From positions 64,001 through 128,000 of the forward strand of contig CAVQQD010000002.1 of NCBI GenBank assembly GCA_963714975.1: a DNA stretch of 64,000 nt. The letters are read 5' to 3'. Every line of letters begins with the position of its first letter. Position 1 is the stretch's first letter. The position numbers were made by a program, and so were the translations under genes. The DNA comes from an uncultured Gammaproteobacteria bacterium. GTDB taxonomy: Bacteria; Pseudomonadota; Gammaproteobacteria; JAURND01. Positions 2,970 to 7,374 of the stretch are shown piece by piece. The notes under the pieces are model-generated. The model had not been told where the DNA came from. It saw only the letters and a list, made by a program, of their open reading frames with translations, and ran no database searches.

Positions 2970-4413
2970 ATGAGTGATGAACAGGTGCAAAAAGCTAAAA
3001 ATGATGCAGTGAGACTTATTGGTTTTTTGACGGGATTGGGTGCAGGTTTTGGAGGGACTGTGGGCGTGACCGGGGGGGGTAAGTAATTTTTTAGAATTAT
3101 TTGCAGCTTTTGGCTTACCTGCAGGGGGCGCTTTAGCCGCAATGAGCGTATGTTCGTATGTTTTTCAAAAGTTTTTCATTTACATTTATACGAAATACTT
3201 CAATAAGGATTGTAACCAAAGCGCTTTAGCTGATGATACTAAAACAATAAAAACAGAATGGGTGAAAGAAAAAAAAGCTGAGAAAAAGAAACAAGCATCT
3301 AAATCTACCTATCAATGGGTTCAGTTCCCTGAAAAGACACCAGAAGAATTAAAAGCTGATAATGGCTTATACGATTATCTCTTCAAATTTTTAATAATTG
3401 GTGATTCTCGTATAGGCAAAAGTTTTTTGCTGTTAAGGTTTACTGAGCATACCTATCTCGAAAGTTATATCAATGGGGCCGTTTATGGTGATTTCAAAAT
3501 AAGAACCATTAGTCACGATGATAGAAATATAAAATTGCAAGTTTGGGATACCGGGAAGGAACTTTTAAAGCCTGCAAAAACCCAGGAAGCTCGTGCTCGT
3601 GGAATCATTGTAGCTTACGATGTCACTGATCAGGAAAGTTTTAACAGTGTAACAAGTTGGCTACTCGATGCGCGGTGTGTGTATAACTTAACGACACCAT
3701 TAATCTTAGTGGGGACCAAATCAGACTTAAATACTAAACGGCAAGTAGACTATGAAACGGGGGAAGAATTGGCTAAGGAATATGGAATACCCTTTATTGA
3801 AACCAGCGCCAAAGCAGCCACTAATGTAGAAAAAGCATTTCTAATCCTTACTAATGAAGTAGTAAAAGGTATGATTCCTAAAAAAGAGTCTAAAGCAGTG
3901 GGCCAAGATCCATTTGCCCAAGCTAATGTGGATAGCACCGTGTTTGCTGATATGATAGCTATTGCTAATCAGCAAGTGGGGCAAAATTATCTACTGCAAG
4001 TAAATAATCGCATTACCTTATTTGGTGCTATTGATAGAGAAGCTCGGAAGAGAGATACGGATTTAGACGATTTCGAGGTTATTTGTAAAACAGCACAATC
4101 TTCGGATGAGTTTGTTCGGAAGGTTATTGAGCTTCGGAATGACGTAAAAGCGCGTCATAAACTAGATGGATTAAGTGGCCTTATTGGCATAACCCGTAGT
4201 AATTTCGCCAATTGCCTGGATGATGCACTGAAAGCTATGTTGAAAAAAGCTCCAGCAAACGGGCATTTTGCTCTTGCCTATCGTGAGCATGTGACACCCC
4301 AGCGTGCACCGGTAGTTTCTTCTGGACCAACAACTGTAGTAGTCGCAGAGCGGGAACCGGAAAGACATTTTTCTCGTTTACAACGTCGGCATGGTGGTGG
4401 GGGTGGTAAATAG
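2970..4413 (+). CDS. Eukaryotic-like Rab1/Ypt1-type GTPase-domain protein (effector candidate); N-terminal hydrophobic segment out of frame at G8 tract 3072-3079; intact ORF 3142..4413
   Basis: YDYLFKFLIIGDSRIGKS, DFKIRTI, IKLQVWDT, YDVTDQESFN, GTKSD, IPFIETSAK match Rab1; ATG 2970 with GAGG RBS joins the ORF if one G is removed. Confidence 0.85.
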
Positions 4414-4450
4414 GCTACAGGGACAACGAACGGAAAGCCACTTCAAGGCA

Positions 4451-4495
4451 CCCTCATCCGGCCTTCGGCCACCTTCTCCCACAAGGGGAGAAGGG
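4451..4495. repeat. REP-like palindrome family A (CCCTCATCCGGCC..CCTTCTCCC..GGGAGAAGG)
   Basis: Further copies at ~17426-17470 (inverted), ~17512-17553, ~38814-38848, ~43428-43472, ~48201-48225. Confidence 0.8.
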
Positions 4496-4615
4496 ATTTT
4501 TAACCCCCCTCTCCCACCTTCCCTCGCTGGCGAGAGGGAATACGAGTCCCTCGTTGGCGCTTGGGTGCGGAAGAGGACAGCAATTGTAAGTCACCACTTG
4601 TGTTAAAGTAGTTCC

Positions 4616-4786
4616 TAAGAGAGAAAAGGCTCCCTCGCAAGAAGGAGCCTGCGGGCGTGAGCGACCGGTCAGCAATAGGTTATACAGCCGTGGGAATCAA
4701 GGTACTCTAGCCCTAACTCTCGATACGTTTGAATAGTTCATTTGGGACTAAAGCTCCCGCTTACAATCGTAAATATCGAGGTTACC
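4616..4786 (+). ncRNA. Bridge RNA of the IS110 element
   Basis: 5' hairpin 4627-4650; target loop with CAGCAAT (4670-4676) and GGGAAT (4692-4697); donor loop with ATAGTTCATT (4733-4742) and CTTACAAT (4760-4767) closed by CTCGATA/TATCGAG; 5' end approximate. Confidence 0.8.
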
Positions 4787-5740
4787 ATGAAATTGTATAG
4801 TTCTTTTATCGGTATGGATATAGGGAAATTTAATTTTGTTGTTGCCTTACATGGAGAAAAGATCACGAAAGAGTATCCAAATAGCGCTGAGGGCATTAAG
4901 GATTTTTTAAAAGATTATGAAGAAATTTTACCCACAGCATTTTGTGTGGTTGAAACGACAGGGGGTCATGAAAAAATTTTGTTACTGGCCCTGCGTTCTA
5001 ATAGATATGCAGTCCATCGTGCAGATACTAGGAAAGTAAAAAACTTTATCCATTCCTATGGTAAAAAGGCAAAAACAGATGCATTAGACGCTAAAGGACT
5101 AGCCCATTATAGTTATGAAAGGTATCAGGAATTAGATATTTATGAACCTCCTGATGAAACGGATATAGCACTTTTTACATTGGTAATGCGTAAAAATGAT
5201 TTAACAGAGATGCTGGTTGCTGAAAAAAATCGCCTTAAATCGCCTAATAATCATGAAATAGTAGAAATAAGTTGTAAAAAAATGATTACCATGCTCTCGG
5301 AAGAAATCAAATTGCTCAATGAGAAAATAAATGAGCTGATTGAAGGTGTACCTTATTTAAGGGAAAAAAGGAAAGTTTTAAAGAGCATTCCAGGGATTGG
5401 TGATGTGCTGAGCTGTGAATTGATTACTTTATTGCCTGAACTAGGAACACTGGATAGGAGAAAAATAGCTGCTTTAGCTGGGTTAGCTCCTCAAGCAAAT
5501 GAGAGTGGCAAATACAAAGGATACAGGCGCTGTGGTTATGGTCGTCAAGGAGTGAAGCCAAAATTATTTCTCGCTGCCATGGCGGCAAGGAATTCAAATT
5601 CGCATCTAAAAGTCTTTTATGAAAAATTGGTTGGGTCAGGTAAAAAGAAAATGGTGGCTTTAACCGCTTTAATGAGAAAAATTTTAGTCATCGCCAATGC
5701 AAAGGTAAGAGATTTCAATAAAGAATATAATTTGGCTTGA
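4787..5740 (+). CDS. IS110-family DEDD recombinase/transposase
   Basis: GMDIGK, VVETTG, KTDALDA, SIPGIG, ESG serine motif, GKKKMVALTALMRK; ATG 4787 after GAGG preferred over TTG 4742. Confidence 0.95.
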   Translation: MKLYSSFIGMDIGKFNFVVALHGEKITKEYPNSAEGIKDFLKDYEEILPTAFCVVETTGGHEKILLLALRSNRYAVHRADTRKVKNFIHSYGKKAKTDALDAKGLAHYSYERYQELDIYEPPDETDIALFTLVMRKNDLTEMLVAEKNRLKSPNNHEIVEISCKKMITMLSEEIKLLNEKINELIEGVPYLREKRKVLKSIPGIGDVLSCELITLLPELGTLDRRKIAALAGLAPQANESGKYKGYRRCGYGRQGVKPKLFLAAMAARNSNSHLKVFYEKLVGSGKKKMVALTALMRKILVIANAKVRDFNKEYNLA

Positions 5741-5889
5741 AAGAGCACCAAGGAGGGTGCGGTCAAGCCAAATCGACAAGCCCGCTCAGCGGGCGCGTCA
5801 GTAGGGAGAAACCCTAGTTTAGGCTGGGGTTTATAGACTTGTATGCTTAAAAATTTTATTTTTTTAAAATTTTTAAGACATAGTTGATT

Positions 5890-6042
5890 CCCGCTCTTCC
5901 GTAATGTGACCAGCGGGTGACGCGCAGGCGGGGCCCCAACAGAAATCCCCCTACCCCCTTTTTGAAAAGGGGGTAGGGGGATTTTGGTGGGGTGCCGTAG
6001 CGGCAGGACCCGTTGGGGTCAGGGTTTCAGCGGGAATTGCTG
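5890..6042. repeat. Miniature inverted-repeat element (ends CAGCAATTCCCGCT / AGCGGGAATTGCTG); left end interrupted by IS110; contains hairpin 5943-5984
   Basis: Rejoined left end is the reverse complement of 6029-6042; homologous element at 56053-56161. Confidence 0.75.
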
Positions 6043-6060
6043 GTGGTGGTGGTGGGGCAT

Positions 6061-7374
6061 TTATTCCGGATGTTCCAAGTACAAGACCCCCGAGTTGTAG
6101 TCGTAGGCAAATAACTCGGCATGTCGGCCCCAGTTAATCGCGATATCAAGCACTTCTTCCGCGGCTTCCTCGCTTAGGTGATCTTCAAGCTCGCGCAGAA
6201 AGCGGTCTTCTGAGGCATGATGCCCGGGACGTTCATCCAGCACCCGGCGGATATGGCGGGCGAGGGGAATGTGTTTTAATAAATGTGCCGCAAAAATTTG
6301 TTTTCGGGTCAGAATATCCGCTTCAGCAAATTGTTTGCCGGCGCGGGTCAATTCAATATCTCCTTTTGAGACATCGGCAAAATTTAAAATTTCTAAGGCT
6401 TCAATCATTAAAAACAGTTGATCGACATCTAGGTTAAGATCCTGGGCTAATTCTGGCAGGTCTACTTTACGTTGGTATTCCGGCAAATTTAATGTCTCTA
6501 AAAAACCAGTCAATTCAGAAATTCCCACCTTGGGCAGTCGGTAGCCAATTCCTAGGGCCTTGTGCTTCAAAACGATATCAAATTCTTGGTAAATTGATGT
6601 CGTCATCAAGGTATAAATTTCATCGACTACGGTGGCTACTCCTTCGTCTTCGGTACCACGTGGATGCGGAATGTCGACGCGTAATTCACCACGAATTTCA
6701 CCAGGATTACTGCTAAAAACCAAAATTCGATCGGATACTAAGGCGGCTTCTTGAATATTGTGGGTGACGAATAAAATGGAGCGAATATTGGTTTTACGTT
6801 CTTGCCACAGATCCAACAAGTCACTGCGCAGATTGTCGGCTGTCAGCGCATCCAAGGCCGAAAATGGTTCATCCATCAGCAGCACATCAGGGTTGACCAC
6901 CAATGCCCGGGCAAAGCCGACGCGTTGCCTCATGCCGCCGGATAATTCTTTGGGGTAGGCAGATTCAAATCCATCTAAGCCAATAATGTCAATGGCTTCT
7001 AAAGCACGGGCGCGGCGTTGCTCGCGTTTCACCCCCTGCGCTTCCAGGCCTAGCTCGACATTTTGTAATACCGTAAGCCAGGGAAATAAGGCAAAACTTT
7101 GAAACACCATGGAAAGCCCTTGCACCGGTCCCGCGATGGGCTGATTGCGATACAAGGCATCTCCTTTGCTAGGGGCAATAAGCCCGGCAATAATACGCAA
7201 TAACGTGGATTTTCCAGAACCAGACTTCCCAAGTAGAGCGACGATTTCCCCTTCGTATAAAGCAAAATTAAGCTGGTTGAGGACGAGCAGATCCTGTGAC
7301 TCATTGCGCCGGAAAGATTTAGAGACATTGCGGATTTCAATCAGAGTTTCCGTTGATTCAGGTGAATTTATCAT
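6061..7374 (-). CDS. Nitrate/sulfonate/taurine-type ABC transporter ATPase with C-terminal AAA-associated domain
   Basis: GKSGSGKS, LSGGMRQR, LLMDEPFSALD; long C-terminal extension ending WGRHAELF. Confidence 0.93.
   Translation of the reverse strand: MINSPESTETLIEIRNVSKSFRRNESQDLLVLNQLNFALYEGEIVALLGKSGSGKSTLLRIIAGLIAPSKGDALYRNQPIAGPVQGLSMVFQSFALFPWLTVLQNVELGLEAQGVKREQRRARALEAIDIIGLDGFESAYPKELSGGMRQRVGFARALVVNPDVLLMDEPFSALDALTADNLRSDLLDLWQERKTNIRSILFVTHNIQEAALVSDRILVFSSNPGEIRGELRVDIPHPRGTEDEGVATVVDEIYTLMTTSIYQEFDIVLKHKALGIGYRLPKVGISELTGFLETLNLPEYQRKVDLPELAQDLNLDVDQLFLMIEALEILNFADVSKGDIELTRAGKQFAEADILTRKQIFAAHLLKHIPLARHIRRVLDERPGHHASEDRFLRELEDHLSEEAAEEVLDIAINWGRHAELFAYDYNSGVLYLEHPE

What the first reader, a model, noticed from the sequence alone, without database searches (positions are those of the whole stretch)
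4578..5895. IS110 bridge RNA with all four guides readable and matching the insertion junctions
Seen: the left junction is CAGCA-ATT-GTAAG and the right junction is ATAGTTG-ATT-CCCGCT. The empty target is therefore CAGCAATTCCC and the circle junction ATAGTTGATTGTAAG. The left non-coding end has a loop with CAGCAAT and GGGAAT (reverse complement ATTCCC), and a second loop with ATAGTTCATT (1 mismatch) and CTTACAAT (reverse complement ATTGTAAG). All four overlap on an AT core. Known: this is the IS621 bridge-RNA logic, where the core is CT. Inference: an apparently intact programmable recombinase with an AT core and its own specificity.
Basis: partly seen in the sequence, partly recalled or inferred. 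Interest (0 to 1): 0.8.

Follow-up and report, generated by a model that had tools for sequence, protein, structure and literature searches.

The report
Intact bridge-RNA IS110 element, AT core
This is an intact copy of a known kind of jumping gene whose own small RNA reads both its target site and its own ends, so it is a well-behaved new example and not a new kind of system.

Summary
Window 4585-5886 is a 1302-bp IS110-group insertion sequence flanked by an AT core dinucleotide on each side (4583-84, 5887-88). It encodes a 317-aa DEDD/Ser recombinase and has a 202-nt left end that folds into a 5' hairpin and two stem-loops with internal loops. The four guides match the junctions:
- LTG GUCAGCAAU
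- RTG GGGAAU
- LDG AUAGUUCAU (mismatch at LD position 7)
- RDG CUUACAAU

0 of 100,000 shuffles of the left end contain all four. The genome holds two more full copies, one copy broken by an IS3-family element, and one fragment. All sit at CAGCAAT|TCCCG. The empty 11-mer occurs 36 times, mostly at the end of a dispersed GC-rich repeat.

In 35 related left ends from other bacteria the element ends and the AT core are conserved, while LTG and RTG change together with the host flanks. The stems show compensatory changes and the handshake positions covary. Joining the ends creates a sigma-70-like promoter.

The AT core is shared by the whole clade, and published work already reports variation at the first core base, so this is a new member of a known kind. 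Expression, circle formation and reprogramming were not tested.

The parts
4576..4584 (+). Left target: LT positions 1-7 (GACAGCA) plus the left AT core (4583-4584)
   Evidence: It matches the LTG in 8 of 9 positions. All 5 left junctions in the genome end in CAGCAAT.
4585..5886 (+). IS110-group insertion sequence, 1302 bp without cores (TGTAAG...ACATAGTTG)
   Evidence: Searches find one identical copy and one copy with a single difference elsewhere in the genome. One search shows the ends are conserved in relatives.
4585..4590 (+). Right donor (RD), TGTAAG, the first bases of the element
   Evidence: RNAalifold pairs it with the RDG. Five of the six pairs are kept in 36 of 36 sequences; the sixth is kept in 33 of 36.
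4601..4609 (+). Extended -10 box, TGT TAAAGT
   Evidence: In the scan it pairs with the -35 TTGATT that is formed only at the RE-core-LE joint. The A2 consensus has TGnTATAAT at this place.
4627..4650 (+). 5' stem-loop of the bridge RNA
   Evidence: Minimum-free-energy fold. The region is too variable in the alignment for pair counts.
4653..4713 (+). Target-binding stem-loop (TBL) with internal loop
   Evidence: Helices 1-3 are 98-99% paired, and 9 of their 13 pairs show changes on both sides.
4668..4676 (+). Left target guide (LTG), GUCAGCAAU (7 nt plus core)
4692..4697 (+). Right target guide (RTG), GGGAAU, the reverse complement of AT-TCCC
4698..4699 (+). TBL handshake dinucleotide CA. It is complementary to donor positions 6-7 (TG) and not to target positions 6-7 (CA).
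   Evidence: The rule is from PMC11208158.
4717..4781 (+). Donor-binding stem-loop (DBL). Basal stem CUCGAUA/UAUCGAG, inner hairpin GGGA/UCCC. The Shine-Dalgarno GAGG (4778-4781) lies partly in the 3' strand of the basal stem.
   Evidence: Helix 4 pair 210-289 has three pair types (UA 11, GC 10, AU 8). Helix 5 is 98% paired.
4733..4741 (+). Left donor guide (LDG), AUAGUUCAU. It has C where the donor has G at LD position 7.
   Evidence: All 35 relatives have G at this position.
4760..4767 (+). Right donor guide (RDG), CUUACAAU, the reverse complement of AT-TGTAAG
4768..4769 (+). DBL handshake dinucleotide CG. The G is complementary to target position 6 (C).
4787..5740 (+). Recombinase gene, 317 aa plus stop
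   Evidence: D11, E56, D98, D101 and S240 align with IS621 D11, E60, D102, D105 and S241.
5741..5886 (+). Right end (146 nt). It contains the hairpin GCCCGCTCAGCGGGC (5770-5784) and the left donor ATAGTTG (5880-5886). TTG (5884-5886) begins the junction -35 box.
5887..5892 (+). Right AT core (5887-5888) and right target TCCC (5889-5892)
6032..6042 (-). Unoccupied copy of the 11-bp target in inverted orientation, about 140 bp to the right. It is the other end of the same GC-rich repeat unit.
   Evidence: C2:70032, minus strand.

Best explanation
Window 4585-5886 is a structurally intact IS110-group (IS621-like) insertion sequence that chooses its insertion site with its own bridge RNA.

Inferred cycle
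1. The element leaves as a circle in which the right end, one AT core and the left end are joined.
2. That joint creates a promoter: -35 TTGATT, an 18-nt spacer, and an extended -10 TGT TAAAGT.
3. The promoter drives a non-coding RNA of about 170 nt that starts near 4616 and ends just before the recombinase start codon.
4. The RNA's first internal loop pairs with the target G(U/A)CAGCA-AT-TCCC. The LTG reads the bottom strand and the RTG reads the top strand.
5. Its second internal loop pairs with the circle junction ATAGTTG-AT-TGTAAG through the LDG and RDG.
6. The DEDD/Ser recombinase exchanges strands next to the AT core, helped by handshake dinucleotides 3' of the RTG and RDG.

The natural target is the end of a dispersed GC-rich repeat, which offers dozens of sites in this genome.

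Shown here: the anatomy, guide-junction complementarity, identical targets of all copies, covariation of guides with flanks in relatives, stem covariation, conserved catalytic residues, and promoter motifs at the joint.

Inferred: transcription, circle formation, catalysis and reprogrammability.
For: 1. Protein. PF01548 matches at E 3.9e-19 and PF02371 at 9.6e-14. The closest solved structures are ISCro4 (E 9.4e-32) and IS621 (E 4.6e-29). The DEDD and Ser residues align (residue roles from PMC11208158).

2. Copies in the genome. There are two further full copies, with 0 and 1 differences over 1302 bp. A fourth copy is split by a 1413-bp IS3-family insertion, and there is a 162-nt fragment. 5 of 5 left junctions end in CAGCAATT and 4 of 4 right junctions begin with CCCG, while the left flanks beyond the site are otherwise unrelated.

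3. Target supply. The empty site CAGCAATTCCC occurs 36 times in 2.56 Mb. My arithmetic from base composition expects about 1.

4. Chance. 0 of 100,000 shuffles carry all four guides.

5. Relatives. 79 loci were found and 36 distinct left ends were aligned. Over 27 guide classes, cognate LTG versus left flank matches 5.37 of 7 positions, against 2.42 of 7 for 702 non-cognate pairings. Over 20 classes, cognate RTG versus right flank matches 3.85 of 4, against 1.35 of 4 for 520 non-cognate pairings. In L024 both the right-end terminus and the LDG read ATGGTTG instead of ATAGTTG.

6. Structure. 92.3% of cells are paired, against 32-52% when the partners are slid. 13 of 25 pairs have changes on both sides, and 0 of 500 shuffles reach that.

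7. Handshake. The second nt of the DBL handshake pairs with target position 6 in 26 of 36 rows. Over 27 classes it is 18, the shuffle mean is 8.85, and 2 of 20,000 shuffles reach 18. The first nt of the TBL handshake pairs with donor G7 in 31 of 36 rows.

8. Promoter. The best promoter-like site in the joined ends scores 9 and spans the core. No site with at least 4/6 plus 4/6 matches exists at the integrated left junction.

9. Position 7. The one guide mismatch is at LD position 7, which Durrant et al. report as the mismatch-tolerant donor position in IS621 (PMC11208160).
Against: - There is no direct evidence of activity. No RNA run was available. The reads and contigs laid on the region showed no joints, neither a circle junction nor an empty site.
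- The single-sequence fold of the left end is not more stable than shuffles (z = -0.83). Its minimum-free-energy form of the second stem-loop differs from the consensus.
- No Rfam family matched the left end at E up to 10.
- This element is the only one of 36 with C at LDG position 7. Its loop is also one nt longer, which could weaken donor recognition.
- One full copy carries G to A in the DBL basal stem.
- Some relatives fit less well. L044, L051 and L065 match 4 of 7 LTG positions. L052 matches 1 of 7 in the aligned register and 9 of 9 when shifted by one column. L042's right flank resembles its own RD instead of its RTG.
- The nucleotide 3' of the RDG is C in 36 of 36 rows and can pair with the cognate donor G7. 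In IS621 that kind of pairing inhibits strand exchange.
Confidence: 0.93

Rival explanations
1. The element has the sequence of a bridge-RNA IS but is no longer mobile. On this view the LDG position-7 C and the longer loop have crippled donor recognition, and the copies are relics.
For: It is the only one of 36 aligned left ends with C at LDG position 7. No circle or empty-site joints were seen in any run laid. One copy is broken by an IS3-family element and one is a fragment.
Against: Two further full copies differ from the window copy by 0 and 1 bases over 1302 bp at separate loci, which points to recent transposition. The ORF is open and all five catalytic residues are present. LD position 7 is the mismatch-tolerant position in IS621 (PMC11208160). 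An older fragment carries A there, so the position varies within this lineage.
Confidence: 0.1
2. Site choice is made by the protein alone, recognising the repeat sequence. On this view the complementarity between the left-end loops and the junctions is incidental or reflects subterminal repeats.
For: All insertions are in one repeat family, which a DNA-binding protein could also recognise. No RNA was observed.
Against: In relatives the loop sequences change together with unrelated host flanks. Cognate matches are 5.37/7 and 3.85/4, against 2.42/7 and 1.35/4 for non-cognate pairings. Protein recognition of a fixed site does not predict this. The stems around the loops keep pairing through compensatory changes. 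0 of 100,000 shuffles carry all four guides.
Confidence: 0.02
3. The copies share flanks because whole segments were duplicated, or because the repeats recombined with one another, and not because of targeted insertion.
For: The right flanks of two copies are similar for tens of bases, since both lie in the same repeat family.
Against: The left flanks are unrelated beyond 8-11 bases in all five junctions. 36 unoccupied sites carry exactly the joined 11-mer. Relatives in other phyla show the same junction logic at different targets.
Confidence: 0.02

Closest known systems
IS621 of Escherichia coli (IS110 group; bridge RNA; Durrant et al. 2024 PMC11208160, Hiraizumi et al. 2024 PMC11208158)
   Same: - DEDD RuvC-like domain plus a Tnp domain with a catalytic Ser.
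- The left end is longer than the right end.
- The RNA has a 5' hairpin followed by a target-binding and a donor-binding stem-loop.
- The LTG is 9 nt including the core.
- The strand logic of all four guides is the same.
- There are handshake dinucleotides.
- A promoter is rebuilt across the core of the circle.
- It inserts into a dispersed extragenic repeat.
- T is at the second core position.
   Different: - The core is AT, not CT.
- The RTG is 6 nt against 4, giving a 13-bp natural target against 11.
- The RDG pairs contiguously over 8 nt. In IS621, 9 RNA nt pair discontiguously with 7 DNA bases.
- The nucleotide after the RDG is an invariant C that can pair with the cognate donor G7.
- The protein is only distantly related (phmmer E 4.6e-29).
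ISCro4 / IS622 of Citrobacter rodentium (PDB 9t56; Perry et al. preprint 10.1101/2025.05.14.653916, passages)
   Same: It is the best-scoring solved relative (E 9.4e-32). It has the same two-loop bridge RNA scheme with handshake guides.
   Different: It has a CT core and a 14-nt recognition scheme as engineered. Nothing has been tested for the window element.
REP-targeting IS110 elements of Pseudomonas putida, ISPpu9 (PMC12288879) and ISPpu10 (10.64898/2026.03.19.712850). Both were seen only as search-listing abstracts.
   Same: They are multi-copy IS110-family elements in which every copy is inserted into one family of repetitive extragenic sequences.
   Different: The host, target sequence and clade differ. 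I did not read these papers beyond the listing.
IS1111 group (for example IS1111, IS4321/IS5075)
   Same: It has the same recombinase family and RNA-guided logic, according to Durrant et al..
   Different: IS1111 elements carry the RNA in a long right end and have 7-17-bp subterminal inverted repeats. Here the RNA is in the left end (202 nt against a 146-nt right end). I noted no long subterminal inverted repeats when reading the ends, but I ran no repeat search.

Membership tests
IS110 family, IS110 group (bridge recombinase elements) | An N-terminal RuvC-like DEDD domain with all four acidic residues | tested here: met
   PF01548 matches at E 3.9e-19. D11, E56, D98 and D101 align with IS621 D11, E60, D102 and D105 (roles). 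E56, D98 and D101 are invariant and D11 is nearly invariant (at least 90%) in the 29-protein alignment.
IS110 family, IS110 group (bridge recombinase elements) | A C-terminal Tnp domain with the catalytic serine followed by glycine | tested here: met
   PF02371 matches at E 9.6e-14. S240-G241 aligns with IS621 S241-G242. S240 and G241 are invariant in A1.
IS110 family, IS110 group (bridge recombinase elements) | Site-specific insertion with a dinucleotide core present at both junctions | tested here: met
   AT is present at both junctions of the window copy and of the other copies. AT follows the right end in 30 of 30 rows. AT precedes the left end in 27 of 30 rows and GT in 3. Terminal inverted repeats were not searched for with a tool.
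IS110 family, IS110 group (bridge recombinase elements) | A non-coding RNA in the left end with a 5' hairpin and two stem-loops that have internal loops | tested here: met
   Fold, consensus fold and pair counts (92.3% paired, 13 pairs with compensatory changes, 0 of 500 shuffles). The 5' hairpin rests on the single-sequence fold only.
IS110 family, IS110 group (bridge recombinase elements) | The first loop is complementary to the target on both strands and overlaps the core. It covaries with the target across orthologues. | tested here: met
   In the window the LTG matches 8 of 9 positions and the RTG 6 of 6.
IS110 family, IS110 group (bridge recombinase elements) | The second loop is complementary to the RE-core-LE junction | tested here: met
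   The LDG matches 8 of 9 positions and the RDG 8 of 8. The RDG-RD pairing is fully kept in 36 of 36 sequences at five of its six pairs. L024 shows a matched change in LD and LDG.
IS110 family, IS110 group (bridge recombinase elements) | Handshake guides: the 2 nt 3' of RTG and RDG pair with positions 6-7 of the non-cognate DNA and not of the cognate DNA | tested here: inconclusive
   The TBL handshake CA pairs with donor TG and not with target CA. The second nt of the DBL handshake covaries with target position 6 (26 of 36). However, the first nt of the DBL handshake is C in 36 of 36 rows and pairs with the cognate donor G7.
IS110 family, IS110 group (bridge recombinase elements) | A sigma-70-type promoter reconstituted across the core in the circular form | tested here: met
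   Sequence motifs only: TTGATT, 18 nt, TGT TAAAGT at the joint, and no comparable site at the integrated junction. Transcription was not observed.
IS110 family, IS110 group (bridge recombinase elements) | A circular intermediate and RNA-dependent recombination | not testable with these tools
   No run held the locus. The reads and contigs laid showed no joints.
IS1111 group | The guide RNA is in a right end longer than the left end, with 7-17-bp subterminal inverted repeats (as described in PMC11208160) | tested here: not met
   The left end is 202 nt and the right end 146 nt. The guide-bearing loops are in the left end. The subterminal repeats were not searched for with a tool.

The most novel reading that the evidence does not exclude
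This AT-core clade may run a modified version of the IS621 handshake and donor-recognition rule. The clade is spread across Legionellales, Rickettsiales, Holosporales, Wolbachia and Chlamydiae-type genomes.
- The core is palindromic.
- The RDG pairs contiguously.
- The nucleotide after the RDG is an invariant C that pairs with the cognate donor G7. In IS621 this arrangement locks the complex before strand exchange.
- In the window element the LDG has lost its pairing at that same position 7.
- The recombinase's Shine-Dalgarno sequence lies partly in the DBL basal stem, so RNA folding could also gate translation.

If these features are functional, the clade would give a natural, orthogonal bridge recombinase with a 13-bp target and different design rules.
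Probability: 0.2. Interest if true: 0.55.

Novelty: new member of a known kind. Interest (0 to 1): 0.33.

Why it matters
Bridge-RNA recombinases are being developed as programmable genome-rearrangement tools, and most rules come from IS621 and ISCro4.

This element is a clean natural case in which the target, the donor, all four guides, the handshake bases and the junction promoter can be read directly from one genome and cross-checked in 35 related left ends. It documents a clade with an AT core, a 6-nt RTG and a contiguous RDG. That is useful as comparative material and as a candidate orthologue for testing.

For the host genome, the element explains a set of insertions into a dispersed repeat and predicts 36 further landing sites. 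It does not reveal a new mechanism.

Tried and rejected
Rfam. All families were searched at E up to 10 over 4300-6200. Nothing matched the left end. The listed hits are sub-threshold miRNA-like matches to palindromes in the flanks (5927-5999, 4467-4543). This is uninformative about a bridge RNA.

Single-sequence folding of 4576-4790. The z-score of -0.83 gives no support by itself. The consensus and covariation analyses were used instead.

Same-family genomes. Only 9 genomes were available. The nearest homologue outside the own genome is 33% identical, which is too distant to compare guides.

Metagenome scan with the protein. It returned 8 loci at 31-40% identity over partial matches. The close relatives seen as proteins (87, 81, 79 and 75% identity) could not be fetched as DNA. 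I therefore could not ask whether the LDG position-7 C is recent. The look-up of encoding contigs is marked closed and was not called.

Sequencing runs. No RNA holder was listed, and 9 DNA rows held only small shares of the words. Four runs were laid. They showed no joints. They held only a 30-45-nt repeat at 4450-4500 and short pieces of the ORF. This gives no information on circles, empty sites or expression.

Supplementary files of papers are closed. I could not check whether this element or its clade is already in the IS110 tables of Durrant et al. or among the 72 orthologues of Perry et al. That bears on the novelty rating.

The idea that L042 shows a tandem or circular RE-LE joint was rejected. 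Its right end is followed by ATTGTAAG, but no second IS copy follows.

Full report
**What is there**

The region 4578-5895 contains a compact mobile element. Reading the sequence and comparing copies puts the element at 4585-5886 (1302 bp, TGTAAG...ACATAGTTG), with an AT dinucleotide on each side (4583-84 and 5887-88).

- One ORF of 317 aa lies at 4787-5740.
- It is preceded by a 202-nt non-coding left end and followed by a 146-nt right end.
- The protein carries Pfam DEDD_Tnp_IS110 (E 3.9e-19) and Transposase_20 (E 9.6e-14).
- Its best matches among solved structures are the ISCro4 transposase (9t56, E 9.4e-32) and the IS621 transposase (8wt6, E 4.6e-29).
- In that alignment D11, E56, D98, D101 and S240 stand opposite IS621 D11, E60, D102, D105 and S241. 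Hiraizumi et al. show these are essential (PMC11208158, passages).
- The element sits in an intergenic stretch. On one side is a Ras-family GTPase gene (3142-4413). On the other is an ABC-transporter ATPase gene on the minus strand (6061-7374).

**Check of the observation**

- CAGCAAT lies at 4670-4676.
- GGGAAT lies at 4692-4697.
- ATAGTTCAT lies at 4733-4741.
- CTTACAAT lies at 4760-4767.

In 100,000 shuffles of the left end, the four motifs derived from the junctions occurred 1282, 5265, 2319 and 304 times singly. At least two occurred together 245 times, and all four occurred 0 times.

The strand logic is the published one. [quoted passage not shown] The 3' side pairs with the top strand, and all four guides include the core (PMC11208160, passages).

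One correction is needed. The shared ATT is the AT core plus a coincidental T. The evidence for this comes from relatives and is given below.

The window's genome is 2.56 Mb in 3 contigs. It holds:

- the window copy;
- a copy at C3:520424 with 0 differences;
- a copy at C3:459657 with 1 difference (G to A at element position 138, window 4722, in a stem);
- a copy at C3:402655 that is split after position 1203 by a 1413-bp insertion. The insertion encodes IS3-type OrfA/OrfB-like ORFs and has a 3-bp duplication;
- a 162-nt left-end fragment at C3:400238 with 6 differences.

All 5 left junctions end in CAGCAATT. All 4 right junctions begin with CCCG (three CCCGCT, one CCCGGT). The left flanks are otherwise unrelated. 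So the ends and the target are the same in every copy.

The joined empty site CAGCAATTCCC occurs 36 times in the genome, 29 of them followed by G. From base composition I expect about one. Most of these sites lie at the end of a dispersed GC-rich repeat (...CAGCAATTCCCGCTGAAGCC...CGACGGGT...). One unoccupied inverted copy lies only about 140 bp to the right of the window insertion, at 6032-6042.

**Relatives and covariation**

A protein search found 6452 proteins at E below 1e-30 among the 8000 candidates scored. The best non-self hits were 87, 81, 79 and 75% identical, mostly on short metagenome contigs.

A scan of one genome per species returned 79 loci at 42-81% identity (46-59% for the near-full-length matches). 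They come from Legionella-type and other Gammaproteobacteria, Rickettsiales, Holosporales, Wolbachia, Chlamydiae and a few other bins.

From these 79 loci I kept 35. Each kept locus has a match that starts at residue 1-4, a TGTAAG/A 196-266 nt upstream of the start codon, and a left end not identical to one already kept. I dropped the following:

- identical sister copies (for example L021, L023, L026, L036-38, L046-48, L053-56, L061);
- L025 and L050, which have no left-end start at the expected distance;
- loci with partial matches.

With the window this gives 36 distinct left ends (alignment A2).

In the 30 rows for which I located both ends:

- every element begins TGTAAG (TGTAAA once) and ends AT(A/G)GTTG;
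- the right end is followed by AT in 30 of 30 rows;
- the left end is preceded by AT in 27 of 30 rows and by GT in 3.

The core is therefore AT throughout this clade.

The nine columns after the conserved GACCG (the LTG) and the six columns before the conserved CA-AGGUAC (the RTG) vary among relatives. They vary together with the host flanks.

| Comparison | Cognate | Non-cognate |
|---|---|---|
| LTG versus left flank (7 non-core positions) | 5.37, 27 guide classes | 2.42, 702 pairings |
| RTG versus right flank (4 non-core positions) | 3.85, 20 classes | 1.35, 520 pairings |

The less good rows are these:

- L044, L051 and L065 match 4 of 7 LTG positions.
- L052 matches 1 of 7 as aligned, but 9 of 9 if read one column later.
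- L042 has a right flank that reads like its own RD. It was left out of the RT count.

The donor side is nearly constant, so it says less. Even so, the RDG stays complementary to the first six bases of the element. Five of the six pairs are kept in 36 of 36 sequences and the sixth in 33 of 36. In L024 both the right-end terminus and the LDG read ATGGTTG.

**RNA structure**

The minimum-free-energy fold of the window left end shows a 5' hairpin (4627-4650). It also shows a stem-loop at 4653-4713 whose internal loop carries the LTG and RTG around a small hairpin. RNAalifold recovers that stem-loop on the alignment.

I then counted a structure of five helices: three for the target-binding stem-loop, plus the basal stem and inner hairpin of the donor-binding stem-loop.

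- 92.3% of 894 cells form standard pairs, against 32-52% when the 3' partners are slid by 1-3 columns.
- 13 of 25 pairs show changes on both sides, against a shuffle mean of 5.3. 0 of 500 shuffles reach 13.
- The weakest helix is the DBL basal stem (80.9% paired). This is partly because MAFFT misplaces its 3' strand in a few rows, including the window row.
- The fold energy of the single sequence is not unusual (z = -0.83). No Rfam family matched.

**Handshake positions**

In IS621 the two nucleotides 3' of the RTG and RDG pair with positions 6-7 of the other DNA after strand exchange. Pairing with their own DNA blocks exchange (PMC11208158).

- TBL side. The TBL dinucleotide here is CA. It is complementary to donor positions 6-7 (TG) and not to target positions 6-7 (CA). 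Across the 36 rows its first base pairs with donor G7 in 31 and its second with donor T6 in 22. Pairing with the cognate target occurs in only 7 and 2 rows.
- DBL side, second base. It pairs with target position 6 in 26 of 36 rows. Over 27 classes it is 18, the shuffle mean is 8.85, and 2 of 20,000 shuffles reach 18.
- DBL side, first base. It is C in all 36 rows and can pair with the cognate donor G7. This departs from the IS621 rule.

**Promoter**

Joining the right end, the core and the left end by coordinates gives TTGATT (right-end TTG, core AT, left-end T), an 18-nt spacer and TGT TAAAGT. This is the best promoter-like site in that stretch. The integrated left junction has no site with at least 4 of 6 matches in both hexamers. 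The alignment consensus has TGnTATAAT at the same place. This matches the reconstituted promoter described for IS621 (PMC11208160).

**How it most likely works**

The published cycle applies.

1. The element is excised, or copied out, as a circle.
2. Transcription of the bridge RNA starts from the junction promoter.
3. A recombinase tetramer assembles on the two loops.
4. The LTG/RTG pair with G(U/A)CAGCA-AT-TCCC, and the LDG/RDG pair with ATAGTTG-AT-TGTAAG.
5. The serine cleaves next to the core T, and strand exchange is helped by the handshake bases.

For excision I saw only abstracts. Hiraizumi et al. 2026 report weak bRNA expression from integrated IS621 and less efficient excision (PMC13626964). 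Xie et al. report single-strand circles and donor-only 'half-match' recognition (10.64898/2026.08.31.748434).

All steps after the sequence anatomy are inferred for this element.

**Differences from IS621**

- The core is AT, not CT.
- The RTG is 6 nt against 4, giving a 13-bp natural target against 11.
- The RDG pairs contiguously over 8 nt.
- An invariant C follows the RDG.
- In this element alone there is a C at LDG position 7 where all 35 relatives have G, and the loop is one nt longer.

LD position 7 is the donor position reported as most mismatch-tolerant in IS621. The old fragment in this genome has A there.

That fragment also differs at LTG position 2 (T to G), and its own left flank has G at that place. 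It differs in the RTG too (G to A). This is a single-case hint that guides and sites drift together within this genome.

**Novelty**

The kind is known. Durrant et al. reconstructed thousands of IS110 insertions and showed guide-target covariation. Hiraizumi et al. state that the second core T is almost invariant and the first base less conserved. They also state that GT, AT and TT cores support IS621 recombination. The AT core and 'its own specificity' are therefore expected variation.

I could not check whether this clade is already listed in those papers' supplements or in ISfinder. I rate it a new member of a known kind. It is moderately interesting as an unusually complete natural example and as a candidate orthologue.

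**What failed or gave nothing**

- No RNA runs were available, and no run held the locus. The four runs laid showed no joints.
- The metagenome scan gave only distant hits.

Noticed in passing
G000:C3:402655-405372 (loci L004, L006, L010): The fourth copy of the element is split in the loop of its right-end hairpin, after element position 1203. The 1413-bp insertion encodes a 97-aa ORF and an overlapping 282-aa ORF that look like IS3-type OrfA/OrfB, and it has a 3-bp duplication (CTC).
   Followed up: partly
G000:C3:400238-400400 (L005): A 162-nt left-end fragment of an older variant has 6 differences. These include LTG position 2 (T to G, matching a G in its own left flank), RTG (G to A) and LDG position 7 (A instead of C). 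It breaks off inside the donor-binding loop.
   Followed up: partly
G000:C3:467989-468882, C2:1203049-1203942, C2:654408-655301, C3:329203-330096 (L014-L017): A second IS110-family recombinase is present in four copies in the same genome. Its open frame is 324 aa and it is 29-30% identical to the window protein. Its ends and any guide RNA were not examined.
   Followed up: no
window 4440-4545 and 5925-6000: GC-rich palindromic repeats flank the insertion. Examples are CTTCTCCCACAAGGGGAGAAGG near 4474-4495 and the perfect palindrome around 5942-5984. A 30-45-nt piece at 4450-4500 occurs at very high summed depth in the soil metagenome contigs that were laid. These repeats give sub-threshold miRNA-like and Chlorobi-1 hits in Rfam.
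   Followed up: partly
window 3142-4413 (+): A 423-aa protein has a eukaryote-like Ras/Rab-type small GTPase domain (Pfam Ras, E 2.7e-41) in a bacterial genome. Many relatives of the IS come from intracellular bacteria, so this suggests a host-associated lifestyle.
   Followed up: no
L020, L022, L031, L032, L034, L035, L039, L041, L069 (junctions): In nine of the 36 rows the related element sits at the same target, GAAGCA-AT-CCAG. These rows come from bins labelled as different lineages. The site often lies within GCGAC...GTCGC-type palindromes, so a similar short repeat seems to be shared across those genomes.
   Followed up: no
L042:3490-3510: In a Holosporaceae genome the right end is followed by AT-TGTAAG, which matches the element's own right donor and not its RTG. 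No second IS copy follows. This may be a donor-like ('half-match') insertion site or a remnant.
   Followed up: partly
L033, L049, L057 (left junctions): Three relatives have GT at the left junction and AT at the right junction. In L033 and L049 the LTG reads GU. This is as expected if the left junction keeps the target's core and the right junction keeps the donor's core.
   Followed up: no
window 4774-4789: The Shine-Dalgarno GAGG (4778-4781), 5 nt upstream of the recombinase ATG, lies partly within the 3' strand of the donor-binding loop's basal stem. The CGAGG motif is conserved in most relatives. RNA folding might therefore limit translation.
   Followed up: no
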